NCBI GenBank assembly: GCA_052031475.1
Contig: JBPEXP010000035.1
Location: 1-32,050 of the forward strand
Origin: Flavobacteriaceae bacterium
GTDB taxonomy: Bacteria > Bacteroidota > Bacteroidia > Flavobacteriales > Flavobacteriaceae
Direction: 5' to 3'
DNA: 32,050 bases
The notes beneath the pieces are model-generated. The model worked only from the letters and a program-made list of their open reading frames with translations. It made no database searches and had not been told where the DNA came from. A program made the position numbers and the translations under genes. Each line of letters starts with the position of its first letter. Position 1 is the first letter of the stretch. Positions 17,098 to 31,155 of the stretch are shown one piece after another.

Positions 17098-17787
17098 ATG
17101 AAGAATTCAAGTAAGGCCTGTTATTTTATGGCCCTGGTTATGAGCCTAATATTAACAGCTTGCGGGGAGCAGTCGCAGCGCGAAACCTCCGCTGCTTCAG
17201 AACAGGTAGAAGCCCCAAAGCAGATTATCAGTCTCGAGGAGGCTCAATCTATGTACAAAAATTACAGTGAACGCCGAGTACCGCTGATTCAGAAATATGA
17301 GGACAGCCTGAACCGCAGTATGCGGGATACTGCAAGCTTCGATGTGGCCCGCTATACTTATTACGATTACCATACTATAAAACAATATCTGGCTTATATA
17401 GAGCAGGAAGCGGCTGCAGCCGGAGTAGAGATAAGTTCTCTTCGCTTCTACTACAGTAATTATCCTGATCAGCAAACCTTTGCTGACGGAACTCCCATCA
17501 TGCATCCGAGACAGAATTCATTTTTTATTATTCCGGCCCTGAAGCAGGAAGGTGAGGATTGGGCGTTTAATATTGAAGATGCCGGAGATGGCACCAAGCG
17601 CGCTGTAATACTTCATGCAGATTTACAAGCCGTTGATGGAAAGAACATGGGCATGATCAATAATGGTCGCGATAAAGCTTATGCAGGTCATCTGATGTCC
17701 GGTCCTTCCGGTCCGGTGCCCGCTGCATTTGGCAACGGAAGTGTAGTCCTTAACCACGGCGGTGCGGCACCACCACCCTGGCAATAA
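17098..17787 (+). CDS. Hypothetical lipoprotein
   Basis: Signal peptide with lipobox LILTACG. 229 aa with no recognisable motifs. First gene of a tightly spaced three-gene run. Confidence 0.6.
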   Translation: MKNSSKACYFMALVMSLILTACGEQSQRETSAASEQVEAPKQIISLEEAQSMYKNYSERRVPLIQKYEDSLNRSMRDTASFDVARYTYYDYHTIKQYLAYIEQEAAAAGVEISSLRFYYSNYPDQQTFADGTPIMHPRQNSFFIIPALKQEGEDWAFNIEDAGDGTKRAVILHADLQAVDGKNMGMINNGRDKAYAGHLMSGPSGPVPAAFGNGSVVLNHGGAAPPPWQ

Positions 17788-17803: not shown

Positions 17804-18493
17804 GTGTTTAGGATATTTGACATATTCCTGGAGAACGCGTATCTGCCTATATATGCGATCACAGTAATTGTAGCCCTTTGGAGGTTCCCCAGGTACTACG
17901 ATACGGTTTTTAAATACCTGCCGGTATTACTGACGTATACCTTTCTCAACGAAGTACTCGGTAATATCATTAAATATTTTGATGAGTACGATTTTGTGTT
18001 CAAAGATCTTCTTACCTACAACAATTGGGTCATCTACAATATTTACGATATAATTTTCTATGTGTATTTCATCTACGTTTACTGGCTGAGCACCAAGAAG
18101 GAATACGCGCGGAAAATTATTTTCGGCGGTGGGATCCTGTATCTGATCGCCGCAGTAGTCAATCCATTCCTGACCGACTTTTTAACAAGGTTTCAGATGA
18201 TCTCCTATTTTACAGGAGCCTCAGTGCTTATCGCTTCCATTTTTATCTATCTGAATTACCACAAACAAAAAACCGGGAGCGTGTTCAACTCCAGGAATTT
18301 ACTTTCCTGGATTAGCGCCGGAATTTTGGTATTTCTGATGGGTTATATACCCCTGATAATTTTAGGCCATCTGGAAATTGTGCCAAGGGCTGATTTCCAG
18401 ATCATAAGAAGGATCCATTTACTGCTCATACTGACCATGTACAGCTGTTTTATTTTGGGATTCATCCGAATGAGCAAAAAACAAATCGTTTAG
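17804..18493 (+). CDS. Hypothetical polytopic membrane protein (about 7 TM)
   Basis: The ORF is hydrophobic and Tyr/Phe/Ile-rich. It has a GTG start 16 nt after the preceding stop, and 7 nt separate it from the next gene. Confidence 0.5.
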   Translation: MFRIFDIFLENAYLPIYAITVIVALWRFPRYYDTVFKYLPVLLTYTFLNEVLGNIIKYFDEYDFVFKDLLTYNNWVIYNIYDIIFYVYFIYVYWLSTKKEYARKIIFGGGILYLIAAVVNPFLTDFLTRFQMISYFTGASVLIASIFIYLNYHKQKTGSVFNSRNLLSWISAGILVFLMGYIPLIILGHLEIVPRADFQIIRRIHLLLILTMYSCFILGFIRMSKKQIV

Positions 18494-19491: not shown

Positions 19492-19503
19492 TCATTAAAC
19501 TCG

Positions 19504-19575
19504 TAGCCCGTAGGGGAATCGAACCCCTGTTACCAGGATGAAAACCTGGCGTCCTAACCCCTAGACGAACGGGCC
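19504..19575 (-). tRNA. tRNA-Glu (anticodon UUC)
   Basis: The reverse complement is GGCCCGTTCGTCTAGGGGTTAGGACGCCAGGTTTTCATCCTGGTAACAGGGGTTCGATTCCCCTACGGGCTA. It folds into a cloverleaf with anticodon stem CCAGG/CCTGG, loop TTTTCAT and T-loop GGTTCGATTCC. No CCA is encoded. Confidence 0.9.
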
Positions 19576-19733: not shown

Positions 19734-21209
19734 TTAATAGGCCTTGGCAAAGAGCACGCGCTGGCTTGACGGGCGCCCGGTAACCATACATTTTCCGGCT
19801 TCTGGTTGTACTCCGTAGGGGATGCATCTGATGGTGGCCTTGGTCTCATCCTTGATTTTTTCCTCGGTTTCGTTGCTGCCGTCCCAGTGGGCTGAAATAA
19901 ATCCGCCTTTCTCCTCCAGGATCCTTTTAAAATCAGCATAAGTATCTACTTCGGTGATGCGGGCTTCCCTGAAATCAGATGCTCTCTTATACAGGTTTTC
20001 CTGGATGTCTGCTAGCAGATTCTCGATTTTCTCTACGGCAGAGTCGGCCGGCACGGTCATTTTTTCCAGTGTATCCCGTCTTGCTATCTCGAGGGTTCCA
20101 TTTTCCAGGTCGCGCTGTCCAATGGCGATCCGTACCGGAACACCTTTGAGTTCATACTCATTAAATTTGAAGCCGGGCTTGTGGGTATCGCGGTGATCGT
20201 ATTTAACGGAAATCCCCCTGGCCTTTAGAGCTTCGCAAATAGGATTAACGCGCTCTGTAATGGCATCCAACTGATCCAGCCCCTTGTAAATAGGAACAAT
20301 GACTACCTGGATAGGGGCAAGTCTGGGTGGCAAGACCAGGCCGTTATCATCGCTGTGGGTCATGATCAGGGCCCCCATGAGCCGTGTAGACACACCCCAG
20401 GAAGTGGCCCAAACATATTCCTGGTCCCCCTCTTTATTGGCAAATTTTACATCAAAAGCTTTGGCAAAATTCTGGCCCAGAAAATGGGAGGTTCCCGCCT
20501 GCAGTGCCTTACCGTCCTGCATAAGAGCTTCTATACAGTAAGTTTCCACGGCTCCTGCGAATCGCTCACTCTCTGTTTTGGTGCCCTTAATGACCGGTAC
20601 GGCCATAAAATTCTCAGCAAAATCTGCGTAGATCCCCAGTATTAATTCCGCTTCGTCAATGGCTTCCTGCTCTGTAGCGTGTGCTGTATGCCCTTCCTGC
20701 CACAGAAATTCAGCTGTACGGAGGAATAATCGGGTGCGCATTTCCCAGCGTACTACATTGGCCCACTGGTTGATCAGCAAGGGCAGATCCCTGTAGGACT
20801 GGATCCATCTGCGGTACGTATCCCAAATAATGGTTTCCGATGTAGGCCTTACAATGAGTTCTTCTTCCAACCTCGCTTCCTCATCCACCACGATCCCCGA
20901 ACCATCCTCTGCATTTTTGAGGCGATAATGCGTAACTACGGCACATTCTTTGGCAAAGCCTTCCACATGGCTGGCTTCTTTACTCAGATAAGACTTTGGA
21001 ATGAACAAAGGAAAATAGGCATTCTCATGCCCCGTATCCTTAAACATCCGGTCTAGGCCGGCCTGCATTTTTTCCCAGATAGCAAAACCATATGGTTTGA
21101 TGACCATACAGCCTCTAACCCCTGAATTCTCGGCCAGATCAGCCTTTATAACGAGTTCATTGTACCATTTGGAATAATCTTCACTGCGCTTGGTTAAATT
21201 TTTTCCCAT
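19734..21209 (-). CDS. proS: Proline--tRNA ligase (archaeal/eukaryote-like class II type)
   Basis: 491 aa. N-terminus [19 protein letters not shown], class II motifs ([16 protein letters not shown]) and a C-terminal zinc-binding-like end ...LFAKAY. Confidence 0.93.
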
Positions 21210-21246
21210 TCAACGTACTTTGGCACAAATGTTGTGATATTGTTAA

Positions 21247-21254
21247 CAAAAATA
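21247..21254 (-). promoter_or_regulatory. Candidate -7 box (TATTTTTG) for proS
   Basis: Exact TAnnTTTG match on the minus strand, 37 nt upstream of the proS ATG. Confidence 0.35.
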
Positions 21255-21306
21255 GCTCGGTAAAGCTAACTAATTTTAGAATGTTCAACAATATAAATTA
21301 CAAGCG

Positions 21307-22620
21307 ATGACGTATTCTATACCCCAGCCTAAAAATCTCTCGCTTCTGGCTGTTTTAACGGCCTTTTTCCTGATGAGCTCCTGTGGTTCATACAGGCAAT
21401 CGTCTTATTATGATGACGATGGTATTTATCAGGAAGAACCGCGACGCACTACAGTGTACTCCAAACCTCAAAGGCAAGCGGAGACCAAAAAAGAGAGTGA
21501 CGGTATTTACGATGATTATTTCAGTCAGAAGGCCGATCAGATTGATGAGTACATGGATTCTGAAATATTTACGGACATCGACGAATACAGCAGCGAAACA
21601 GAACAGGACAGTTTAGGACTGGCCGAAAAAGGAGATTATACAGACTACAGTGCCCAGGATTACAGCGGCTACGGCGGATGGGGCGAAAACGCATCCAATG
21701 TTAATATCAATGTCTACGGCGGTGGCTGGGGCGGCGGCTGGGGCTGGGGCGGCGGAATCGGCTTTGGCATCGGCATTGGCTGGGGCTGGGGCTGGGGCTA
21801 TCCCGGTTGGGGCTGGGGCTATCCCGGTTGGGGCTGGGGTTATCCTGGCTGGGGCTGGGGTTATGCTGGCTGGGGCTGGGGAGGCTATCCCGGTTGGGGC
21901 TGGGGTTATCCAGGCTGGGGCTGGGGCGGCGGATACTACCCTTACTACGGTTACGGACGTTATGCCTATAACAGGAGCAGACGTGGCTACTACGGTACAG
22001 GAGCCAATGCCATAGCATATAATCAGGCTCGCGGAAGATCCAATCTCGGAACCACAGGACGCTCTGTTCGCACCAGAAATAATAGCGGGCGATCCAATCT
22101 CAGTAACGCCAATCCTAATCTGGCAAGGCGGTCATCTGCCAGATCGGCCAATGCACGTAGCGGAAGGGTAAGTGCAGATGCCATCGAACGCAACCGGGCT
22201 TACAGGTCTAGCCGAAGTACCCGGGCCGTTCCAAGATATAACAACAGTTCCAGATCTGCCCGGACGTACAGGGGCGCAGCCACCAGGAGCGGCACATATC
22301 GCCGAGGTTCATCCGGCACTGCCAGGTCTTCCAGAGGCGCTTACAGAACAGGGTCACCCAGATCTTCTACATATAACAGGAGTGGATCGCCAGCAGGCAG
22401 AAGCTCAGGATACCGCGGTTCTTCCCGATCAGGTTATTCTAGAAGTTCAGGATACCGGGGCAGCACCAGAAGCAGTCCGAGAAGTTCAGGTTACCGGAGC
22501 TCCGGCGGTAGTTACCGAAGTTCAGGAGGCTTTAGGAGCTCAGGAGGATCCTTCAGATCATCAGGCGGAGGACGTTCCGGCGGCGGAGGACGTTCCGGTG
22601 GCGGAAGAGGAAGACAATAA
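21307..22620 (+). CDS. Predicted lipoprotein with a tripartite low-complexity architecture: acidic/Tyr block, (GWGWGYP)n Gly/Trp block, Arg/Ser/Gly/Tyr-rich tail
   Basis: ATG, then a hydrophobic signal and LMSSC (Cys26). 437 codons, 32 nt upstream of a co-oriented OMP gene. Composition described under findings. ORF length alone is weak evidence here, because other frames are also open across the repeat region. Confidence 0.65.
   Translation: MTYSIPQPKNLSLLAVLTAFFLMSSCGSYRQSSYYDDDGIYQEEPRRTTVYSKPQRQAETKKESDGIYDDYFSQKADQIDEYMDSEIFTDIDEYSSETEQDSLGLAEKGDYTDYSAQDYSGYGGWGENASNVNINVYGGGWGGGWGWGGGIGFGIGIGWGWGWGYPGWGWGYPGWGWGYPGWGWGYAGWGWGGYPGWGWGYPGWGWGGGYYPYYGYGRYAYNRSRRGYYGTGANAIAYNQARGRSNLGTTGRSVRTRNNSGRSNLSNANPNLARRSSARSANARSGRVSADAIERNRAYRSSRSTRAVPRYNNSSRSARTYRGAATRSGTYRRGSSGTARSSRGAYRTGSPRSSTYNRSGSPAGRSSGYRGSSRSGYSRSSGYRGSTRSSPRSSGYRSSGGSYRSSGGFRSSGGSFRSSGGGRSGGGGRSGGGRGRQ
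21718..21936 (+). repeat. Gly/Trp-coding tandem repeat array with a GGCTGGGGCTGGGGYTAYCCNGGN-type unit. The period is mostly 21 nt.
   Basis: The core at 21778-21929 holds about seven near-identical units encoding GWGWGYP, GWGWGYA or GWGWGGYP. It is preceded by a degenerate GGGW/GIGF region. Confidence 0.85.
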
Positions 22621-22652
22621 TTCATCATCAGACATACTAAAAAAATCAAGAA

Positions 22653-24155
22653 ATGAAAAGGATCACAACTTTCATGATAGGCTTGTTTTGTGCCGTTCTC
22701 AGCGCACAGGACATCACCGATGTGCTGAGATTCAGCCAGGAAGAGCTTTTAGGAACAGCCCGATTTCAATCGCTTAGCGGAGCCTTTGGTGCCCTGGGTG
22801 GAGACCTTTCGGCCATCAATGTCAACCCGGCCTCCAGCGCGGTGTTCAATAACGGCCAGTTTACCATGACGGGTGCGGCCTATAATCGCAAAAACGACGC
22901 AATCTATTTCGGTACTTTCCGCAATTCAAACATCACCTCCTGGAAATTCAACCAGATCGGTGGGGTTTTTGTATGGAAAGACCAGGAAAACGACTGGAAA
23001 AAGATCGCTTTGGCTTTCAACTATGACCTGGTCCGGAATTTTGATGATGAGTTCTTTGCTTCTGGTAACGGCACTGAGGGCATAGACAATTATTTTCTCA
23101 ATTTTGCCGAAGGAGTTCCCTTTAGCTCCCTACTAATCAGGGATGGTGAATTTATCGAAGATGCTTATTTAAGGGTGGGGTCCACTTTGGGATTTGGTCC
23201 GCAGCAGGCCTTTTTAGGCTATTTTGGCGGTGTGATAGACCCTCTGGATGAAAATGACCCGGACGAGACCAATTATGTCTCTACGGCCACTTATAGCACA
23301 GCTACTCAGGACTTTTTCCAGTCTACAAGAGGCTACAACAGCAAATTTACTATGAACCTTTCTGGCCAATATCAGGATGTATTATACCTGGGAGGTTCAT
23401 TGAATTTTAACAGCGTCTGGTACGAGAAGTTTACCCGCTTTGATGAAACCGGCTACGATCTGGGTTCTGAACTTCAATTTGTGAATTTTGACAACCTCCT
23501 AAGAACCACAGGATGGGCCTTCTCTTTCGGATTAGGAGCCATTGCCAGATTGAATGATAATGTAAGGCTGGGTGCCAGTTACCAAAGCCCCACCTGGTAT
23601 GAACTGCAGGACGACCTCTCTCAGCGGATCAATTCTAATCTCGCAGACAGTGATATAGGGTTTATCGACTTTAATCTGGTTAATTTCTTTGAAAGATATA
23701 CCGTAAAAACACCTTCAAAGTTTACGGGCAGCCTTGGCCTGGTCTTTGGCAAACAGGGATTGCTGAGCTTTGACTACAGCTACCAGGATATGTCACAGGC
23801 CGAATTAAGACCTCCCGGTGATCCCAGCTTTAGTGTTGTAAATACACAGATAGCCAATGAACTAGGAGCGGTTTCAAGTTTCCGGGTTGGCGGTGAGTAC
23901 CGCATCAATGCTTTTAGCTTGCGAGGCGGCTACCGCTTTGAACAAAGCCCCTATAACGATGGGCTTACCATAGGTGACCTTCAAGGCTATTCAGGTGGTT
24001 TTGGATTTAATTTCGGTGGCAGCAGACTGGACTTCGCCTACAGCCGTTCTGAGCAGGATGTCAGTCAGCAACTATTCACTACCGGGATCACGACCCCGGC
24101 TTCGGTGAACCAGATCAGGAACAATTTCCTGATGAGTTACACACTTAATTTCTAA
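22653..24155 (+). CDS. Outer-membrane beta-barrel protein, FadL/TodX/PorV-like. The exact family is uncertain.
   Basis: Signal peptide MKRITTFMIGLFCAVLSAQ. The N-terminal segment GTARFQSLSGAFGALGGDLSAINVNPASSAVF contains an NPA motif like the FadL hatch. There are many amphipathic beta-strand-like stretches, and the C-terminal residue is Phe (...SYTLNF). Confidence 0.7.
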   Translation: MKRITTFMIGLFCAVLSAQDITDVLRFSQEELLGTARFQSLSGAFGALGGDLSAINVNPASSAVFNNGQFTMTGAAYNRKNDAIYFGTFRNSNITSWKFNQIGGVFVWKDQENDWKKIALAFNYDLVRNFDDEFFASGNGTEGIDNYFLNFAEGVPFSSLLIRDGEFIEDAYLRVGSTLGFGPQQAFLGYFGGVIDPLDENDPDETNYVSTATYSTATQDFFQSTRGYNSKFTMNLSGQYQDVLYLGGSLNFNSVWYEKFTRFDETGYDLGSELQFVNFDNLLRTTGWAFSFGLGAIARLNDNVRLGASYQSPTWYELQDDLSQRINSNLADSDIGFIDFNLVNFFERYTVKTPSKFTGSLGLVFGKQGLLSFDYSYQDMSQAELRPPGDPSFSVVNTQIANELGAVSSFRVGGEYRINAFSLRGGYRFEQSPYNDGLTIGDLQGYSGGFGFNFGGSRLDFAYSRSEQDVSQQLFTTGITTPASVNQIRNNFLMSYTLNF

Positions 24156-24165
24156 GGAATAAGGA

Positions 24166-24192
24166 CCCCGACAGACAAATCGGGGTTTTTTT
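24166..24192 (+). terminator. Intrinsic terminator after the OMP gene. It overlaps the stop codon of the convergent T9SS gene.
   Basis: CCCCGA-CAGACAAA-TCGGGG followed by T7. Confidence 0.75.
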
Positions 24193-25606
24193 ATCGCTTG
24201 AGGGTAAAGTGGGTTCGGATGACATTGGCCACTAAAGCCCCGTTCTCATCTCTTTCGTATTCCAGCCTGAACCAGTAATCCGATGATGGCATGGGCCTAC
24301 CATTAAAGGTGCCGTCCCAGCCAATCGTATTCTCATCGAGTTGTTTCAGCAGTTTGCCATATCGGTCGAAGATAAATACCGTGGGGTCAGTGAGCGTCTC
24401 TATTCCCAGTACATTCCAGGCATCGTGTATTCCATCGCCGTTTGGTGTAAAAAATTTGGGATAGCCCACTACCAGGAAAGGAATGGGTTCTGTGGTACCG
24501 CATCCGTTCAGATCGTTGATGATCAAAGTGTTTTCCCCAGGCGGCACATCCACGAATATGGGTGAAGGCTGAAATTCTCCCCCGTTAATCGCGTATTCAT
24601 AGCTGCCATTGCTGGCCATGAAAACCTCTATAATATTATTATCCGATAAATCATCGATGACATCGATCCTGTCCAGTACGGGCGGACCGAAGAAGGTGAT
24701 CAGAATATCGTCTGTTATGGTTGTTGCGAAAGTGGTCTGAATCTCCACGAAATACCGGCCAGAATTAGGGCTGGTTACCACATAGGTTGTGGCAGTGGGT
24801 CCTGAAGCCAGGTTGGGATCGTCAATTACTCCGTCATCATCATAGTCTACAGACCAGGTGACATTGGCTATATTGGGGCCGGCAGGCGAGTTCTCAGCAC
24901 TGAGTGTTATATCCGGATCTCCTTCGCAGGCAATGATATCCAGACCCAGGAATTCGTCCCTGAGCGTACAATCCAGGGCCGTATTCTGATCGGCATCTAC
25001 TGAACTCCCTGTAAACGTGAGCATAAAAGGTTCGGGGTCCCCGTTAAAATTGGTGTTGAAATTATTGATAAGCAGGTAATATACCTCGCCCTGAAGCACG
25101 TCTATCCATTCATCATAAGTATTCTGATTCCCAGTAAGCGGAGGCTGGCCTACCTGCCCGTTCTCAGGGTTTACCCCTACCCCTGTAAAATCCGTATCAT
25201 TCACCTCATAATTACATCGTATGGGCTGGGCCGTACCATTGCTGATACTGGCACAGTCTACATCGGGTCCGTAAAGCGCAAAATCCCACTCGGCAGTGAT
25301 GGTCGTGCCTGTGGAGGGAAGGGCCTGAATATCAAAACCAATCTGGCCGTCTGTGCCAGCCCTGAATACGTACCAGGAAGTATTGTTTTCAATATTGGCG
25401 GAGGCCACACTACCTTTTTCAAGACATCCGGATTGCCTGATCACATTGGGATCAAAATCCTCAATATCGCCCAGGCCATCAGCCTGAGACATGATAGGAG
25501 CATCTGCACAGACAGGAATGGAAGTCCGGCAATCAGGAGAGTTCTGCGCTCTGATCCCCAAAACCATGAGAAAAACAGCGCAAAATGTACATTTTAGTGT
25601 TCGCAT
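24191..25606 (-). CDS. T9SS type B sorting domain-containing secreted protein (paralog 1)
   Basis: Signal peptide. The C-terminus GYPKFFTPNGDGIHDAWNV...FDRYGKLL...WDGTFNGRPMPSSDYWF...FTLKR matches the gliding-motility/type B CTD. The N-terminal Cys-rich module is shared with the next gene. Confidence 0.85.
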   Translation of the reverse strand: MRTLKCTFCAVFLMVLGIRAQNSPDCRTSIPVCADAPIMSQADGLGDIEDFDPNVIRQSGCLEKGSVASANIENNTSWYVFRAGTDGQIGFDIQALPSTGTTITAEWDFALYGPDVDCASISNGTAQPIRCNYEVNDTDFTGVGVNPENGQVGQPPLTGNQNTYDEWIDVLQGEVYYLLINNFNTNFNGDPEPFMLTFTGSSVDADQNTALDCTLRDEFLGLDIIACEGDPDITLSAENSPAGPNIANVTWSVDYDDDGVIDDPNLASGPTATTYVVTSPNSGRYFVEIQTTFATTITDDILITFFGPPVLDRIDVIDDLSDNNIIEVFMASNGSYEYAINGGEFQPSPIFVDVPPGENTLIINDLNGCGTTEPIPFLVVGYPKFFTPNGDGIHDAWNVLGIETLTDPTVFIFDRYGKLLKQLDENTIGWDGTFNGRPMPSSDYWFRLEYERDENGALVANVIRTHFTLKR

Positions 25607-25686
25607 AGAGGGCGCGGGGATAACTATCTTCTTTTAATCTATAGTATAACTCCCGGAGCGCCGATTTAGTATGTTAAAAATGACTT

Positions 25687-25705
25687 TTTCGACACATGGT
25701 CGAAA
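25687..25705 (-). terminator. Weak terminator-like hairpin between the two T9SS cargo genes
   Basis: TTTCGAC-5 nt-GTCGAAA forms a 7-bp stem, but the U-run is not immediately adjacent. Confidence 0.3.
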
Positions 25706-25735
25706 CCTTTTCCTACGTTTATTTCTTAGGTTGAC

Positions 25736-27538
25736 TTAGCGCCTGAGCGAGAAGTGGTTACTGAGGTATTTAGCCTCTACTCGTTGGCCCTGTGTATCCA
25801 GGTAAGTAAGCTGAAACCAGTAGTCCGTTGAGGGCAATGCACGGCCGTTGAATGTACCGTCCCAACCGCTGCTGTTACCGTCTAATTGCTTGATGAACTT
25901 GCCGTAGCGGTCAAAGACACTGACTATGGGCTCTTCAAGAGTATCGACCCCTTCAATGTGCCAGCGATCATTGGCCCCGTCGCCGTTGGGAGTAAAAAAC
26001 TTGGGATATCCCACTACGGTGATCGTATCACTGACCTGGCCACATCCGTTAAGATCATTGATGGTGATGGTGTGCAGACCTGGGGCTACATCGGTAAATA
26101 TATTGGAGGCCTGAAAGGGTCCTGAATCCAGTTGGTATTCAAAATCACCGCTAACACCGGCTATCACTTCAACGGTATTGCTGTCTTGCAAGCCTTCGAT
26201 CAATACCTCACTAATGGTTGGAGTTAGGGAAACTACCACGTTTATGGAAGCCACCGTGCTGCATGTGAGTCCGGATTGACTGTTGCTGATGGTGAGTTCA
26301 TAGGTTCCTGCTTGGGAAACGGTGATCGACGGACTGCTTTGGCCGCCGTCCCAGCTGTACGTATAGCCGGGATTTGGACTGCTTTCGCCTATCAGTACAC
26401 CACTGCTGTCTTCACATACAAATATTTCTGTAGGGAAGGAGATCATGGGTGATTCTACAACAGTGAGATCAAAACTCTCACTGGCATCATAGCAGTTGGG
26501 ATTGGTGCTGGAAGTTGCCCTGACATAGATCGTTTCCGTTCCCGCAATCAGCGCATATTGGCTGGGGAGGGCGTTTGCACCGCTATTCGCATCTGCTGCA
26601 GATTGATGATAGCTAATCAGTACTTCATCCGGATCTTGTGAACCCAGCGCTTCACCGTCTTTCGAACTCAGGTCGAAATAGCCCAATTCCGAACAGACGG
26701 TTTCATCAGTAATACTTTGAGTTACCGGTGCAATGCTGAATGCCACCTGAACATCACTGATGATATTGCCACTGGCGGTCACCACCTGTACCCGGTACAT
26801 AGCTGAGACCGTAACCGTTAAGGTTGGATTGGTCTCGCCGCTTATAAGTTGAAATCCACTACCTGTATCCCTGTACCAGTTATAGCTAAGCGCGCCGGCC
26901 GTGGTGGCGTCTAATTGTACCGTCTGGTTGTCACATGCGGCCAGGGGCGGTCCCAGTAGATTATTGATGATGGAGCAATCCAGGGCATCGTTCGGATTGG
27001 TGATGAAGATATCCCCGGTAAACTGAATGGAAAAACCCGAATTCGTATTACTGAAATTATTGATCAGCAGGTAGTAGTCCTGTCCGGGTTCAACTTGCAG
27101 CCAATCTTCATAGAGAACGGTACTTGTACTTCCGGTGGGGTCTTCCCCTACACCCATAAATGCTTCTTCATCCTGGTTGTCGAAGAAATTACATCGAACC
27201 GGGTCTCCCAGGTTGTTGCAATCACTGCTCTGGTACAAGGCAAAATCCCAGTCCTCGGAGGTGTCAAATCCAATATTGAAACCCAGTTGTCCCGAGGCAC
27301 CGGTACGGAAGCGGTACCAGGCAGAATTAGACTCTATGGCGCCAGAGAGGGTTTGTTCCAGGCAACCGCTCGTAAAAGCCCCGTTGAAATCATCGATACC
27401 ATAGCCCTGGGTGCCTCCATTGGTTGGTGTATTGTTGCAAATGGGGATGGCATTGGTACAATCAACAGCAATCTGCCCGTAAGACCAAGAGCCACAGAAT
27501 AATAGCGACAGCAATAAGGCAAGGCAGAGCTGTTTCAT
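25736..27538 (-). CDS. T9SS type B sorting domain-containing secreted protein (paralog 2, with extra Ig-like repeats)
   Basis: Signal peptide. The C-terminus is GYPKFFTPNGDGANDRWHI...FDRYGKFI...WDGTFNGRALPSTDYWF...FSLRR. The N-terminal module is collinear with paralog 1. Confidence 0.85.
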   Translation of the reverse strand: MKQLCLALLLSLLFCGSWSYGQIAVDCTNAIPICNNTPTNGGTQGYGIDDFNGAFTSGCLEQTLSGAIESNSAWYRFRTGASGQLGFNIGFDTSEDWDFALYQSSDCNNLGDPVRCNFFDNQDEEAFMGVGEDPTGSTSTVLYEDWLQVEPGQDYYLLINNFSNTNSGFSIQFTGDIFITNPNDALDCSIINNLLGPPLAACDNQTVQLDATTAGALSYNWYRDTGSGFQLISGETNPTLTVTVSAMYRVQVVTASGNIISDVQVAFSIAPVTQSITDETVCSELGYFDLSSKDGEALGSQDPDEVLISYHQSAADANSGANALPSQYALIAGTETIYVRATSSTNPNCYDASESFDLTVVESPMISFPTEIFVCEDSSGVLIGESSPNPGYTYSWDGGQSSPSITVSQAGTYELTISNSQSGLTCSTVASINVVVSLTPTISEVLIEGLQDSNTVEVIAGVSGDFEYQLDSGPFQASNIFTDVAPGLHTITINDLNGCGQVSDTITVVGYPKFFTPNGDGANDRWHIEGVDTLEEPIVSVFDRYGKFIKQLDGNSSGWDGTFNGRALPSTDYWFQLTYLDTQGQRVEAKYLSNHFSLRR

Positions 27539-30183: not shown

Positions 30184-31155
30184 ATGTACTTTCTTGGCAT
30201 TACCTGGAATCCCAACGACACCCTTTTTGCGTTAGGACCTCTGCAAGTCAAATATTACAACCTGCTATGGATCATAGCCTTTGCCGTGGGCTGGTATTTA
30301 ATGAAGCGGATTTTTGACAATGAGCGTAAAACCAGTCAGCAATTAGACGCCCTCTTTATTTACACCGTGGTAGCCACTATGCTGGGTGCACGATTAGGCC
30401 ATGTATTTTTTTACGACTGGGACTATTATAAGGACCACCTGGCAGAAATATTACTGCCCATCCGGGAAAGAACGGGAAGTTCGCTTTTTGGCCTGATCAA
30501 CGGTTATGAGTTTTCAGGATTTAGCGGGCTTGCCAGCCACGGCGCCGCCATTGGTGTCATCATAGGCATGTACCTGCTAACCCGAAAATACAAGGACCTC
30601 AATTTGCTTTGGGTCCTAGACCGGGTGGTCATACCGGTAAGCTTAGGCGCTTTTATGGTCAGGCTGGGAAACTTTTTTAACTCCGAGATCAATGGTAAAG
30701 TCACCGACAGTTCCTTTGCTTTTGCCACCCGCTTTGTAAGGGATTCAGACGATATGCCTGCTTACAGGGCTTTGCAGATCACCGGTGAGGATACAGTGGA
30801 TGCAGCCTATAAGGCCTTGGAACACAAGGCGGAATTTGCCCAATACCTGGAAGCGATCCCGTTCAGACATCCGGCTCAAATGTACGAAGGGGTTGCCTAT
30901 ATATTTGTATTTCTGATCCTGTACTGGTTTTACTGGAAAACGGATTACAAGAATAAAAAAGGTTTTTTATTCGGCCTTTTCCTCATCCTTCTGTGGACAA
31001 TCCGATTCTTTGTCGAGTTTGTTAAAAAGAGCCAGGGCGGTTTTGAAGAATCGCTTGGATTGTTGTCTACGGGCCAGTGGTTAAGCATTCCGTTTATAAT
31101 CATCGGTCTGTACTTTGTATTCAGGCCTTCATCAAATAGCGAAAACAAATCCTGA
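30184..31155 (+). CDS. lgt: Prolipoprotein diacylglyceryl transferase
   Basis: Polytopic membrane protein with GARLGHVFFY and RHPAQMYEG motifs. 323 aa. Confidence 0.88.
   Translation: MYFLGITWNPNDTLFALGPLQVKYYNLLWIIAFAVGWYLMKRIFDNERKTSQQLDALFIYTVVATMLGARLGHVFFYDWDYYKDHLAEILLPIRERTGSSLFGLINGYEFSGFSGLASHGAAIGVIIGMYLLTRKYKDLNLLWVLDRVVIPVSLGAFMVRLGNFFNSEINGKVTDSSFAFATRFVRDSDDMPAYRALQITGEDTVDAAYKALEHKAEFAQYLEAIPFRHPAQMYEGVAYIFVFLILYWFYWKTDYKNKKGFLFGLFLILLWTIRFFVEFVKKSQGGFEESLGLLSTGQWLSIPFIIIGLYFVFRPSSNSENKS

What the first reader, a model, noticed from the sequence alone, without database searches (positions are those of the whole stretch)
21307..22620. Predicted lipoprotein built from three opposed low-complexity blocks: acidic/Tyr, (GWGWGYP)n and an Arg/Ser/Gly/Tyr tail
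A signal peptide and LMSSC lipobox (Cys26) are followed by three blocks.
(i) Residues about 27-125 are acidic and Tyr-rich (YYDDDGIY, IYDDYF, DIDEYSSETEQD), with about 26 D/E by hand count.
(ii) Residues about 138-210 are almost pure Gly/Trp with some Tyr/Pro, and about 19 Trp fall within roughly residues 123-206: GGGWGGGWGWGGGIGFGIGIGWGWGWGYPGWGWGYPGWGWGYPGWGWGYAGWGWGGYPGWGWGYPGWGWGGG.
(iii) Residues about 211-437 have about 47 Arg, no Lys and only two acidic residues. This block ends in RSSGYRGSSRSGYSRSSGYRGSTRSSPRSSGYRSSGGSYRSSGGFRSSGGSFRSSGGGRSGGGGRSGGGRGRQ.

I know of no characterised bacterial family with this layout. It is a block polyampholyte with an aromatic-glycine core and an RS/RGG-like tail, features that in eukaryotes typify condensate-forming and nucleic-acid- or polyanion-binding proteins. 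Arg/Trp-rich segments masked by an anionic pro-region also typify antimicrobial peptide precursors. Possible roles, all speculative, are a surface coacervate or adhesive matrix, binding of eDNA, polyphosphate or anionic algal polysaccharides, a beta-solenoid or amyloid-like fibre, or a processed cationic effector.
Basis: partly seen in the sequence, partly recalled or inferred. Interest (0 to 1): 0.85.

Follow-up and report, generated by a model that had tools for sequence, protein, structure and literature searches.

The report
Disordered lipoprotein partner of FadL barrel
This is a real, conserved gene for an almost entirely unstructured outer-membrane lipoprotein (acidic, then Trp/Gly, then Arg/Ser) that across the phylum Bacteroidota is always encoded with a FadL-type outer-membrane channel; its likely relative in Flavobacterium johnsoniae is abundant in outer membranes, but nobody knows what it does.

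Summary
ORF 21307-22620 encodes a 437-aa protein with a Cys26 lipobox and three blocks: acidic/Tyr, uncharged Trp/Gly (19 W) and Arg/Ser/Gly/Tyr (47 R, 0 K).

It is not an orphan or a chance ORF. It belongs to a family of at least 412 clusters (50% identity, E<=1e-30) in Flavobacteriia, Cytophagia and Bacteroidales-like MAGs. The block order, lipobox and several non-repetitive motifs are conserved, and pN is far below pS in every block.

In 79/79 close loci and 5/5 distant loci the gene lies divergent from proS. A FadL-family 14-strand barrel with an invariant NPA hatch motif follows it directly.

The same trio in F. johnsoniae (Fjoh_4939/4940/4941) was seen by proteomics. There the lipoprotein is abundant in outer-membrane and vesicle fractions and rises with the FadL homologue on TamL depletion.

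AlphaFold2 predicts disorder (pLDDT 45), with no solenoid. The family has no Pfam, NCBIfam or PDB match.

My best reading is a disordered accessory subunit or "collar" of the FadL-type channel: N-terminal docking motifs, an interfacial aromatic block, and a polycationic tail that binds anionic envelope lipids or polymers. The mechanism is inferred, not shown.

The parts
19734..21209 (-). proS (prolyl-tRNA synthetase), the divergently transcribed neighbour. This adjacency holds throughout the family.
   Evidence: Pfam ProRS-C_1, HGTP_anticodon and tRNA-synt_2b. proS lies divergent upstream in 79/79 close loci and in the distant loci L080, L081, L083, L084 and L085.
21210..21306 (.). 97-bp intergenic region shared by proS and gene X. 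The promoters are presumed, not mapped.
   Evidence: Position only. The sigma-70 consensus scan found no site in this stretch, and Bacteroidota promoters are not covered by that tool.
21307..21384 (+). Signal peptide with lipobox (residues 1-26, LMSS-C26). Cys26 is the predicted lipidated N-terminus of the mature protein.
   Evidence: Sequence. AF2 helix at residues 9-25. Cys is invariant in alignments A1 and A3. A lipobox is present in 118/121 members. The F. johnsoniae positional counterpart is SPII.
21385..21717 (+). Acidic, Tyr-rich block (residues 27-137, net charge -17). It carries the conserved linear motifs DGIY (38-41), Y-x-x-Y-F (68-72), F-T-D-x-D-x-Y (88-94) and G-W-G-x-N-x-x-x-V-x-I-N (124-135).
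   Evidence: Invariant or >=90% conserved columns D38, G39, I40, Y41, Y68, Y71, F72, F88, T89, D90, Y94, W125, G126 and N135. Equivalent motifs appear in Cytophagia and Bacteroidales-like members. pN 0.17-0.19 against pS >0.9.
21505..21561 (+). Predicted short helix (residues 67-85, IYDDYFSQKADQIDEYMDS). The conserved aromatics sit at i, i+3 and i+4, which makes it a candidate docking helix.
   Evidence: AF2 helix H67-85. Block pLDDT is 76 for residues 71-80, the only confident non-signal segment. Y68, Y71 and F72 are >=90% conserved.
21607..21615 (+). D101-S102-L103, which matches the Bacteroidota general O-glycosylation sequon D-(S/T)-(A/I/L/V/M/T).
   Evidence: A sequon occurs in the N-terminal block of 86/121 members, most at about +74 after the Cys, against about 40 expected from shuffling. 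Only 1/121 has a sequon after the first Trp. The sequon definition is from established knowledge, and glycosylation itself was not tested.
21718..21936 (+). Uncharged aromatic-glycine block (residues 138-210), including (GWGWGYP)n.
   Evidence: Composition. Wimley-White interfacial sum is -39 kcal/mol, and the best 60-aa window is -35 against at most -17 for any other protein in the window. Family medians: 69 aa, 39% aromatic, 29% Gly, 3% charged. AF2 block pLDDT is about 33-38 with no secondary structure.
21784..21927 (+). 21-bp tandem DNA repeat (GGCTGGGGCTGGGGCTATCCC, 6.7 copies, 84% matches) that encodes GWGWGYP.
   Evidence: Tandem Repeats Finder. The unit differs in relatives (WGWNN, GYYG, GYGWGYP).
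21937..22620 (+). Arg/Ser/Gly/Tyr polycationic tail (residues 211-437, net +45, pI 12.0) ending in GGRGRQ, plus the stop codon.
   Evidence: Composition. In the family the tail R:K ratio is 4011:127, the median net charge is +32 and the median length is 190 aa. pN 0.23-0.25 against pS about 0.8; dN/dS is 0.05-0.07 between L005 and L006. The basic G-R-R-x C-terminus recurs across the family.
22653..24155 (+). Gene Y: a FadL/OmpP1/TodX-family 14-strand outer-membrane barrel (500 aa). It starts 32 nt downstream of X on the same strand, so it is probably in the same operon.
   Evidence: Pfam Toluene_X at 36.8 bits against a cutoff of 29.7. AF2 pLDDT 83 and pTM 0.80. Foldseek best hits are E. coli FadL (E 1e-17) and BamG chains 9hiv_F, 9n2d_B and 9hjm_F. 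N58-P59-A60 is invariant. No terminator-like site lies between X and Y. Y is directly downstream of X in 79/79 close and 5/5 distant loci.

Best explanation
Gene X (21307-22620) encodes a genuine envelope protein conserved across the phylum. It is an N-terminally lipidated, probably O-glycosylated, intrinsically disordered outer-membrane protein. It is co-transcribed with, and works together with, the FadL-family barrel encoded directly downstream (gene Y).

Shown:
- The gene is real and under purifying selection.
- The three-block order and the lipobox are conserved.
- The X-Y pair stays together while all other flanks change.
- The F. johnsoniae trio with the same layout (Fjoh_4939/4940/4941) yields an abundant lipoprotein in outer-membrane and vesicle fractions. 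It rises together with the FadL homologue when outer-membrane homeostasis is disturbed.

Inferred mechanism:
1. The acidic N-terminal segment carries short conserved motifs (DGIY, the Y-x-x-Y-F helix, FTDxDxY, GWGxNxxxVxIN). These fold on binding and dock the protein to the barrel.
2. The uncharged Trp/Tyr/Gly block does not fold. It partitions into the membrane interface as a second, very strong anchor or 'aromatic collar' next to the barrel.
3. The Arg-only polycationic tail binds anionic head groups or polymers of the envelope: phospholipid, sulfonolipid or LPS phosphates, and possibly peptidoglycan.

Together, X would act as an accessory subunit of a FadL-type channel involved in traffic of hydrophobic molecules or in outer-membrane lipid homeostasis. 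On present evidence it faces the periplasm.
For: Real gene:
- 412 homologues at E<=1e-3, best 1e-87.
- 412 clusters at 50% identity with E<=1e-30 and 1124 with E<=1e-10.
- pN is far below pS in all four segments; dN/dS is 0.05-0.2 where it can be estimated.

Architecture conserved:
-.

Pairing with the barrel:
- proS(-) | X(+) | Y(+) in 79/79 loci of related genera.
- The same trio in Algoriphagus-type (L080), Lutimonas-type (L081), Flavobacterium (L084), a 'Bacteroidales bacterium' MAG (L085) and an unnamed lineage (L083), where the other neighbours differ.
- The downstream proteins are full-length homologues of Y, 25-40% identical.
- The X-Y gap is 32 nt with no terminator-like site.

Y is a FadL-type barrel:
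-, with an invariant NPA motif.

Expression and co-regulation in F. johnsoniae (PMC12045153):
- Fjoh_4939 is the Pro-tRNA ligase, Fjoh_4940 is an SPII lipoprotein of unknown function, and Fjoh_4941 is OMPP1/FadL.
- On TamL depletion Fjoh_4940 rises 2.6-fold and Fjoh_4941 rises 5.6-fold in OM fractions. The authors themselves suggest a functional link.
- Mean peptide counts are 46 (OM) and 59.8 (OMV) for Fjoh_4940, and 19.2 and 41.3 for Fjoh_4941.

Disorder:
- AF2 mean pLDDT 44.6, with only helices 67-85 and 290-300 outside the signal peptide.

Interfacial block:
- Wimley-White sum of -39 kcal/mol.

No lipoprotein export signal:
-.

Precedents for FadL-family barrels that hold a lipoprotein or cargo in Bacteroidota:
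- BamG clamps the N-terminus of BamH (PMC12611786; PMC12578637).
- PorV is described as a substrate-binding FadL homologue.
Against: - No physical interaction between X and Y has been shown. I could not run a complex prediction.
- A mirror-tree test gave no specific signal. The partial correlation of X N-terminus with Y was 0.63, against 0.66 with cytoplasmic FolE.
- Conserved adjacency could partly reflect a frozen gene order next to an essential gene (proS).
- The equivalence of Fjoh_4940 with this family rests on synteny and on family members from other Flavobacterium species. I did not see its sequence.
- Topology is inferred only from the absence of an export signal. High abundance in vesicles fits either face of the outer membrane.
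- The substrate of Y, and any ligand of the tail, are unknown.
- One distant member (P0520) has a type-I signal without Cys, so the lipid anchor is not universal.
Confidence: 0.45

Rival explanations
1. Surface-exposed adhesive or coacervate matrix. The protein is displayed on the cell surface. Its opposed charged blocks and aromatic core would form a sticky phase or bind eDNA, polyphosphate or anionic polysaccharides. The neighbouring 14-strand barrel might serve as its dedicated exporter.
For: - The composition (Gly/Tyr/Trp/Arg/Ser, block polyampholyte) is right for adhesion or phase separation.
- The F. johnsoniae counterpart is abundant in outer-membrane vesicles.
- A dedicated barrel sits next door.
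Against: - There is no Bacteroidota lipoprotein export signal: an acidic residue at +2..+6 occurs in only 10/118 members.
- Fjoh_4940 is classed as periplasm-facing.
- It has no T9SS C-terminal domain.
- The family sits beside proS in marine, freshwater (F. aquaticum, F. lacustre) and Bacteroidales-like lineages alike. This argues for a core envelope role, not a habitat-specific adhesin.
- FadL-type barrels are not known protein exporters.
Confidence: 0.15
2. Periplasmic polycation brush or spacer that works independently of the barrel. The lipid-anchored disordered chain fills the space under the outer membrane. It would bind peptidoglycan or inner-leaflet lipids and so set envelope spacing or stiffness, a functional stand-in for the Lpp that Bacteroidota lack.
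For: - A long disordered tail (median 190 aa, net +32) with strong selection for Arg over Lys.
- It is abundant in the outer membrane.
- It rises on envelope stress.
- It has no export signal.
Against: - It is abundant in shed vesicles, which is unexpected for a protein held on the cell wall.
- This reading does not explain the invariant pairing with Y.
- There is no conserved C-terminal Lys for Lpp-type cross-linking.
Confidence: 0.15
3. Beta-solenoid or amyloid-like fibre built from the (GWGWGYP)n block.
For: - A regular 7-residue repeat with alternating Gly and aromatic residues.
- AlphaFold cannot exclude amyloid assembly.
Against: - AF2 with 121 sequences gives pLDDT 30-40 and no strands in this block.
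- The repeat unit and copy number are not conserved (WGWNN, GYYG, GYGWGYP). Only composition and length are kept.
- No curli- or Fap-type genes lie nearby.
Confidence: 0.07
4. Precursor of a processed cationic, Trp/Arg-rich antimicrobial effector masked by an anionic pro-region.
For: An acidic segment followed by Trp-rich and Arg-rich segments resembles cathelicidin-type precursors in charge layout.
Against: - It has a lipoprotein signal.
- It is in single copy beside proS across several classes, under purifying selection along its whole length.
- There is no protease, immunity or export gene in the conserved unit.
- The tail is 190-230 aa, far longer than such peptides.
Confidence: 0.03
5. 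A spurious or untranslated ORF created by GC-rich repeats.
For: - Low-complexity sequence.
- Shadow ORFs in other frames.
- Two of the four closest MAG relatives carry a frameshift (L004) or an in-frame stop (L008) in the tail.
Against: - The family is conserved at protein level to E 1e-87.
- pN is far below pS in every block.
- The sequence after the L004 and L008 lesions is still conserved in frame.
- Peptides of the F. johnsoniae counterpart are detected.
Confidence: 0.01

Closest known systems
Fjoh_4940 / Fjoh_4941 of Flavobacterium johnsoniae (PMC12045153)
   Same: - The same trio: Pro-tRNA ligase (Fjoh_4939), an SPII lipoprotein of unknown function, and an OMPP1/FadL/TodX barrel.
- Family members from other Flavobacterium species sit in the same position (L084).
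- The authors noted a possible functional link.
   Different: The protein is mentioned only in proteomic tables. No sequence analysis, function, topology experiment or mutant has been reported. I did not see its sequence, so orthology is inferred from synteny.
BamG-BamH of the Bacteroidota BAM complex (PMC12611786, PMC12578637; PDB 9n2d, 9hiv, 9hjm)
   Same: A FadL-family 14-strand barrel that holds the lipidated N-terminal region of a lipoprotein. Foldseek ranks the BamG chains among the best matches of Y, at E 2e-17 to 2e-14.
   Different: - Y is only 12-14% identical to BamG and gives no sequence-level PDB hit.
- Y is about 100 aa longer.
- BamH is a folded surface lipoprotein with an export signal, and it is encoded elsewhere.
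- X is disordered, lacks the export signal and is encoded next to its barrel.
E. coli FadL, TodX and TbuX hydrophobic-substrate channels
   Same: - Y has the fold (TM-score 0.61-0.66 normalised to the target).
- Y passes the Pfam family threshold.
- Y has the NPA hatch motif.
   Different: No dedicated lipoprotein partner is known for these channels. Y's conserved N-terminus (D-x-L-R-Y/F-S-Q) is about 6 residues longer before the NPA than in FadL; the E. coli sequence for this comparison is from memory.
PorV/PorQ (T9SS cargo-shuttling FadL-like barrels)
   Same: A barrel of the FadL superfamily in Bacteroidota that binds a specific protein partner.
   Different: - NCBIfam PorV_fam scores 30.7 bits against a cutoff of 90.
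- The Foldseek match to PorV (8gl6_F) is only E 1e-5.
- X has no T9SS C-terminal domain.
RcsF with OmpA/OmpC/OmpF (Enterobacteria); from my own knowledge
   Same: A lipoprotein with a disordered segment that functions through intimate contact with an outer-membrane barrel and reports on or reacts to outer-membrane stress.
   Different: There is no sequence relationship. RcsF has a folded signalling domain, whereas X is disordered throughout and far larger.
Eukaryotic FG-nucleoporin and FUS/RS-type low-complexity domains; from my own knowledge
   Same: Aromatic-glycine 'sticker' repeats, Arg/Ser/Gly/Tyr tails and predicted disorder.
   Different: The resemblance is in composition only. X has no RGG tripeptides and no RNA-binding domain. 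It is an exported, lipid-anchored bacterial envelope protein.

Membership tests
Bacterial lipoprotein (signal peptidase II substrate) | An N-terminal signal peptide ending in a lipobox [LVI..][ASTV..][GAS]-C, with the Cys as residue +1 | tested here: met
   The window protein has LMSS-C26 after a hydrophobic stretch. AF2 predicts a helix at 9-25. The Cys is invariant. A lipobox pattern is present in 118/121 members. SignalP/LipoP were not available. The F. johnsoniae positional counterpart is SPII by SignalP 6.0.
Bacteroidota surface-exposed lipoprotein | A lipoprotein export signal: two or more acidic residues just after the Cys (+2 to +6) | tested here: not met
   Positions +2..+6 read G-S-Y-Q-Q/N. 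Only 10/118 members have any acidic residue there. The criterion is as quoted in PMC12578637 and PMC12045153.
Bacteroidota O-glycoprotein | The sequon D-(S/T)-(A/I/L/V/M/T) in an exported protein | tested here: met
   The window protein has D101-S102-L103. A sequon occurs in the N-terminal block of 86/121 members, most at about +74 after the Cys, against about 40 expected from shuffling.
Bacteroidota O-glycoprotein | A glycan actually attached | not testable with these tools
   This needs glycoproteomics or glycan staining.
FadL/OmpP1/TodX family (gene Y) | A Pfam PF03349 match above the gathering score | tested here: met
   36.8 bits against a cutoff of 29.7. Homologues are annotated as OmpP1/FadL family transporters.
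FadL/OmpP1/TodX family (gene Y) | A 14-strand barrel with an N-terminal hatch that carries the NPA motif | tested here: met
   AF2 pLDDT 83. Foldseek to FadL 3pgs/1t16 at E about 1e-17. N58-P59-A60 is invariant in 61 sequences and is kept in the distant loci.
FadL/OmpP1/TodX family (gene Y) | Transport of a hydrophobic substrate through a lateral opening | not testable with these tools
   No substrate or uptake data are available.
BamG (BAM subunit) | Sequence orthology to BamG (Fjoh_1412, B. thetaiotaomicron BamG) and association with BamA | tested here: not met
   phmmer and profile searches of the PDB, which holds 9n2d, 9hiv and 9hjm, give no BamG hit. Identity is 12-14% in the Foldseek alignments. 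F. johnsoniae has BamG (Fjoh_1412) in addition to Fjoh_4941. Association with BamA was not testable.
PorV/PorQ family | NCBIfam NF033709 or NF033711 above the cutoff | tested here: not met
   30.7 bits against 90, and 14.9 bits against 220.
T9SS cargo | A C-terminal sorting domain (type A, or type B/CHU_C) | tested here: not met
   X has no Pfam hit at E<=0.1. The CHU_C domains belong to the two genes at 24191-27538.
Eukaryote-type RS/RGG low-complexity domains | RS dipeptide arrays or RGG/RG boxes, usually alongside RNA-binding domains | tested here: inconclusive
   X has 25 RS dipeptides but 0 RGG and no RNA-binding domain. This is a resemblance in composition only.
Beta-solenoid or functional amyloid | A confidently predicted or conserved repeat fold | tested here: not met
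   pLDDT is 30-40 with no strands. The repeat unit is not conserved. Amyloid formation itself is not testable here.

The most novel reading that the evidence does not exclude
The aromatic-glycine block and the opposed charged blocks form a cohesive, disordered, nucleoporin-like or coacervate phase on the outer membrane around the FadL-type channel. This greasy but hydrated phase would receive or carry hydrophobic cargo (fatty acids, sulfonolipids, other lipids) between the channel and the periplasm, or seal and buffer the membrane there. It would be the first example of a phase-forming, FG-nucleoporin-like transport accessory in a bacterial envelope, conserved across a whole phylum.
Probability: 0.12. 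Interest if true: 0.92.

Novelty: new variant of a known kind. Interest (0 to 1): 0.7.

Why it matters
Bacteroidota outer membranes are built differently from the E. coli model: BAM has an extracellular canopy, FadL-like barrels are used as structural or shuttling subunits, and there is no Lpp.

Here a protein that is abundant in F. johnsoniae outer membranes and vesicles, and conserved across at least three classes, has no domain, no predicted fold and a composition otherwise associated with eukaryotic condensates. It is tied to the canonical-type (NPA-hatch) FadL-family barrel of these genomes.

Working out its role would bear on how hydrophobic nutrients and lipids cross or are balanced in the Bacteroidota envelope. 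It would also show whether intrinsically disordered 'sticker-spacer' proteins have structural or transport roles in bacterial envelopes.

The finding also corrects misleading public annotations of this family ('Vitellogenin II', 'Prolyl-tRNA synthetase'). Finally, it supplies a tractable experimental system, the fjoh_4940-4941 pair in F. johnsoniae.

Tried and rejected
- **Family and structure libraries.** Pfam and NCBIfam scans of X found nothing. A PDB sequence search with a 121-sequence profile returned only chance hits at E about 0.7.
- **AlphaFold2 of X with 121 sequences.** No fold was predicted, so I made no fold search for X.
- **Locus search with alignment A1.** It was repeated with the closer alignment A2, which biases the 80 returned loci towards Maribacter/Flagellimonas-like genera. 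I compensated with five distant loci obtained through exact-protein look-ups.
- **Literature.** A search for 'vitellogenin II' plus Flavobacteri* found 0 papers. Fjoh_4940/4941 appear in only one work, in two versions.
- **'Excluded from vesicles, hence wall-tethered'.** I first read the preprint remark that Fjoh_4940 was 'not' identified in OMVs this way. Table S7 shows it at a mean of 59.8 peptides in OMVs, so I dropped that argument.
- **Mirror-tree test for X-Y co-evolution over 67 loci.** The partial correlation given ProRS was 0.63 for X N-terminus with Y, 0.66 with FolE and 0.61 with a CHU_C protein. This is uninformative.
- **EF-hand or DxDxDG calcium-loop reading of YYDDDGIY.** The register does not fit, because position 1 is Tyr. 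Rejected by inspection.
- **Lpp-like covalent wall attachment through the C-terminus.** There is no conserved terminal Lys.
- **Sigma-70 promoter and terminator scan.** It gave nothing beyond chance expectation.
- **Rfam and tRNA scans.** They found only tRNA-Glu.
Full report
**1. The observation**

The ORF at 21307-22620 (+) is present as described and is the longest ORF in the region.

- Residues 27-125 hold 25 D/E and 13 Tyr.
- Residues 123-210 hold 19 Trp and 41 Gly, with no Lys or Arg.
- Residues 211-437 hold 47 Arg, no Lys, one Asp and one Glu.

The net charges of the three blocks are -17, 0 and +45. The composition is far from that of the other 24 long ORFs of the window.

The (GWGWGYP)n run is encoded by a 21-bp tandem repeat of 6.7 copies at 21784-21927.

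One small correction applies. The tail is RS-rich (25 RS dipeptides) but has no RGG tripeptide.

**2. It is a real gene and a member of a large family**

A search of 5.8 billion proteins gave 412 homologues, the best at E 1e-87. They come from Saonia, Arenibacter, Maribacter, Muricauda/Flagellimonas, Psychroflexus, Hanstruepera, Mangrovimonas, Psychroserpens and Flavobacterium.

A profile search of 1.84 billion cluster representatives found 412 clusters at E<=1e-30 and 1124 at E<=1e-10.

A second search seeded with distant members reached Algoriphagus (Cytophagia), a 'Bacteroidales bacterium' MAG and unnamed Bacteroidota MAGs.

A pattern scan of one genome per species found a relative in 348 stretches, using only two strict motifs.

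The public names are 'hypothetical protein', 'Vitellogenin II' or 'Prolyl-tRNA synthetase'. The last two are annotation artefacts, one of composition and one of gene adjacency.

In nearly all of the 120 best hits a Cys lies at about position 26. It is followed by an acidic block, a Trp-rich block with almost no charge, and a tail with 20-60 Arg and almost no Lys. Over the family the tail R:K ratio is 4011:127.

Against the two intact closest relatives (L005, 451 aa; L006, 461 aa), pN is 0.08-0.25 and pS is 0.4-0.94 in each of four segments. Between L005 and L006 the tail has dN/dS of 0.05-0.07. So even the low-complexity tail is under purifying selection in this frame.

Two other close MAG relatives carry one frameshift (L004) or one in-frame stop (L008) in the tail. 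The sequence beyond each lesion is still conserved in frame. I read these as assembly errors or very recent lesions.

**3. It is not purely low complexity**

Alignments show invariant or >=90% conserved positions outside the repeats: C26, D38-G39-I40-Y41, Y68/Y71/F72, F88-T89-D90/Y94, W125-G126/N135, and R225-R226.

Equivalent motifs, in the same order, are visible in Cytophagia and Bacteroidales-like members: DDVYY, an aromatic/basic helix motif, and SPNVSL.

In the N-terminal block of 86 of 121 members, most at about +74 after the Cys, lies the Bacteroidota O-glycosylation sequon D-(S/T)-(A/I/L/V/M/T). In the window it is D101-S102-L103. About 40 occurrences would be expected from shuffling. 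The sequon definition comes from established knowledge, and glycosylation itself is untested.

By contrast, the aromatic-glycine block keeps its length (median 69 aa) and composition (39% aromatic, 29% Gly, 3% charged). It does not keep its repeat unit, which may be GWGWGYP, WGWNN, GYYG or GYGWGYP.

**4. Structure**

AlphaFold2 with the 121-sequence alignment gives mean pLDDT 44.6 and pTM 0.21. The only helices are the signal peptide (9-25), residues 67-85 (block pLDDT 76 at residues 71-80) and residues 290-300. The GW block and the tail score 30-40 with no secondary structure.

This gives no support for a solenoid. It fits an intrinsically disordered protein with a few binding motifs. In helix 67-85 the conserved aromatics sit at i, i+3 and i+4, which is one face of a helix.

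The GW block has a summed Wimley-White interfacial free energy of -39 kcal/mol. Its best 60-residue window scores -35, against at most -17 for any other protein encoded in the window, membrane proteins included. I infer that it is strongly drawn to the membrane interface.

**5. Genomic context**

Upstream and divergent lies proS.

Downstream lies a 500-aa protein (22653-24155), 32 nt after X with no terminator-like site between them. The evidence that it is a FadL-type barrel is:
- It passes the Pfam FadL/Toluene_X threshold.
- It models as a barrel with pLDDT 83.
- Its best structural matches are E. coli FadL (E 1e-17), the BamG subunits of three Bacteroidota BAM structures, and TodX/TbuX. 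PorV matches only at E 1e-5.
- It keeps an invariant N-P-A in its N-terminal hatch. This is the motif mutated in the FadL structures that Foldseek lists.
- It is not BamG. It gives no sequence-level PDB hit to BamG, identity is 12-14%, and F. johnsoniae has BamG (Fjoh_1412) as a separate gene.

The trio proS(-) | X(+) | Y(+) is found in 79 of 79 loci from related genera.

More tellingly, it is found in five distant loci whose other neighbours all differ: Algoriphagus-type L080, Lutimonas-type L081, unnamed L083, Flavobacterium L084 and Bacteroidales-MAG L085. In each, the downstream protein is a full-length Y homologue, 25-40% identical, with the same hatch motif.

The two CHU_C (type-B T9SS) cargo genes next to Y in this window are conserved only within the close clade. 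They are not part of the unit.

**6. Experimental evidence from the literature**

In F. johnsoniae, Fjoh_4939 is the proline-tRNA ligase. Fjoh_4940 is an SPII lipoprotein of unknown function, classed as periplasm-facing because it lacks the export signal. Fjoh_4941 is an OMPP1/FadL/TodX protein (PMC12045153).

On depletion of TamL, Fjoh_4941 rises 5.6-fold and Fjoh_4940 rises 2.6-fold in outer-membrane fractions. The authors suggest a functional link from gene proximity.

Fjoh_4940 gives a mean of 46 peptides in the outer-membrane fraction; BamG gives 45 and Fjoh_4941 gives 19. In vesicles it gives a mean of 59.8; Fjoh_4941 gives 41.3 and BamA gives 40.8.

The same trio occurs in a Flavobacterium genome that carries a bona fide family member (L084). 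Other Flavobacterium species also have family members. I therefore treat Fjoh_4940 as the orthologue. This is an inference from synteny, because I did not see its sequence.

No other paper in the library mentions either gene.

**7. How it most likely works**

Shown: X is a conserved, expressed, lipobox-bearing, disordered envelope protein that is genetically locked to a FadL-type barrel and co-regulated with it.

Inferred:
- The N-terminal motifs dock on the barrel. The precedent is BamG, which clamps the N-terminal region of the lipoprotein BamH.
- The aromatic-glycine block lies in the membrane interface as a second anchor or collar.
- The Arg-only tail binds anionic head groups or polymers.
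- The pair serves traffic of hydrophobic molecules or outer-membrane lipid homeostasis. This fits its induction when TamL is depleted.
- The absence of an export signal favours a periplasm-facing location.

I put this at 0.45.

The rivals and my confidence in each are:
- A surface adhesive or coacervate: 0.15.
- A periplasmic polycation brush independent of Y: 0.15.
- An amyloid or solenoid: 0.07.
- An antimicrobial precursor: 0.03.
- A spurious ORF: 0.01.

A mirror-tree test for X-Y co-evolution was uninformative.

**8. Comparison with what is known**

The working principle resembles known Bacteroidota pairs of a FadL-family barrel with a dedicated protein partner: BamG-BamH, and PorV with its cargo. 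It also resembles, more loosely, RcsF with the porins.

Membership tests fail for BamG, PorV/PorQ, T9SS cargo and surface-lipoprotein status. They are met for 'lipoprotein' and, for Y, 'FadL family'.

The partner itself has no characterised relative. It has no Pfam, NCBIfam or PDB match and no predicted fold. I know of no characterised bacterial family with an acidic, then aromatic-glycine, then Arg/Ser layout; that statement rests on my own knowledge plus the negative searches above.

**9. Verdict**

The finding is real and more interesting than a compositional curiosity. It is a phylum-wide, uncharacterised disordered protein, abundant in F. johnsoniae outer membranes and vesicles, and tied to a FadL-type channel.

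I rate it a new variant of a known kind: a barrel plus a dedicated lipoprotein partner, where the partner is of an unprecedented disordered type. My interest score is 0.7.

The most novel reading not excluded is a nucleoporin-like or coacervate phase that serves hydrophobic transport at the outer membrane. I give it probability about 0.12.

Noticed in passing
window 24191-25606 (-) and 25736-27538 (-): Two genes encode proteins with a CHU_C (type-B) type IX secretion C-terminal domain; the second also has an Ig_7 domain. They sit beside gene Y in 76 of 79 close loci. The distant loci show no gene with a CHU_C hit, so they are not part of the X-Y unit. No PorP/SprF-type partner gene lies next to them in this window.
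   Followed up: partly
L004:6001-7450 and L008:6001-7450: Two of the four closest relatives (both MAGs) have a lesion in the Arg/Ser tail. L004 has one frameshift. L008 has one in-frame stop at the position of the conserved E in 'ERNRAYR'. The downstream tail is still conserved in both. These are probably assembly errors in repeat-rich DNA, but recent inactivation is not excluded.
   Followed up: partly
window 21650-22015 (+), 21707-22018 (-), 22172-22777 (+): ORFs of 103-201 aa lie in other frames or on the opposite strand, over the GW block and the tail. They are Ala/Gly/Pro/Ser-rich shadows of the GC-rich repeat DNA (block GC 68% against 46% for the window). They are not genes.
   Followed up: partly
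family-wide (P0003, P0028, P0048, P0056, P0241, P0396, P0465, P0466): UniRef and NCBI names for this family include 'Vitellogenin II' and 'Prolyl-tRNA synthetase'. Neither has any basis in the sequence. The first reflects the Ser/Arg-rich composition and the second the neighbouring proS.
   Followed up: yes
P0520 / L085:4001-5377: A distant member from a 'Bacteroidales bacterium' MAG has a type-I-like signal peptide (…GSFA-QQ) with no lipobox Cys. Its tail is richer in Thr/Pro/Gln/Lys. It keeps the motif order and the proS|X|Y arrangement. The lipid anchor is therefore dispensable in some lineages.
   Followed up: partly
window 30184-31155 (+): lgt (prolipoprotein diacylglyceryl transferase), the enzyme that would lipidate Cys26 of X, is encoded 7.5 kb downstream after folE and cysS. 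This is probably coincidental. No hit to it was recorded in the 79 related loci, whose 6-kb flanks would mostly not reach it.
   Followed up: no
window 17098-17787 (+) and 17804-18493 (+): Two adjacent 229-aa ORFs have no Pfam match. The first starts with a lipoprotein-like signal (…LILTAC-G). The second looks like a multi-pass membrane protein. They are not paralogues. Both are conserved in 50-52 of the 79 related loci.
   Followed up: no
window 19503-19575 (-): A tRNA-Glu (anticodon TTC) lies downstream of proS. It is the only Rfam or ARAGORN hit in the window.
   Followed up: yes
C-terminus of X, window 22600-22617, and family-wide: The extreme C-terminus is almost always Gly/Arg followed by one or two residues (GGRGRQ, GGRRN, GRGGR, GGRR, GGRRK, GIRR). 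This holds from Flavobacteriia to the Bacteroidales-like member. A conserved terminal motif on a disordered tail suggests a recognition or retention signal, but I have no explanation for it.
   Followed up: no
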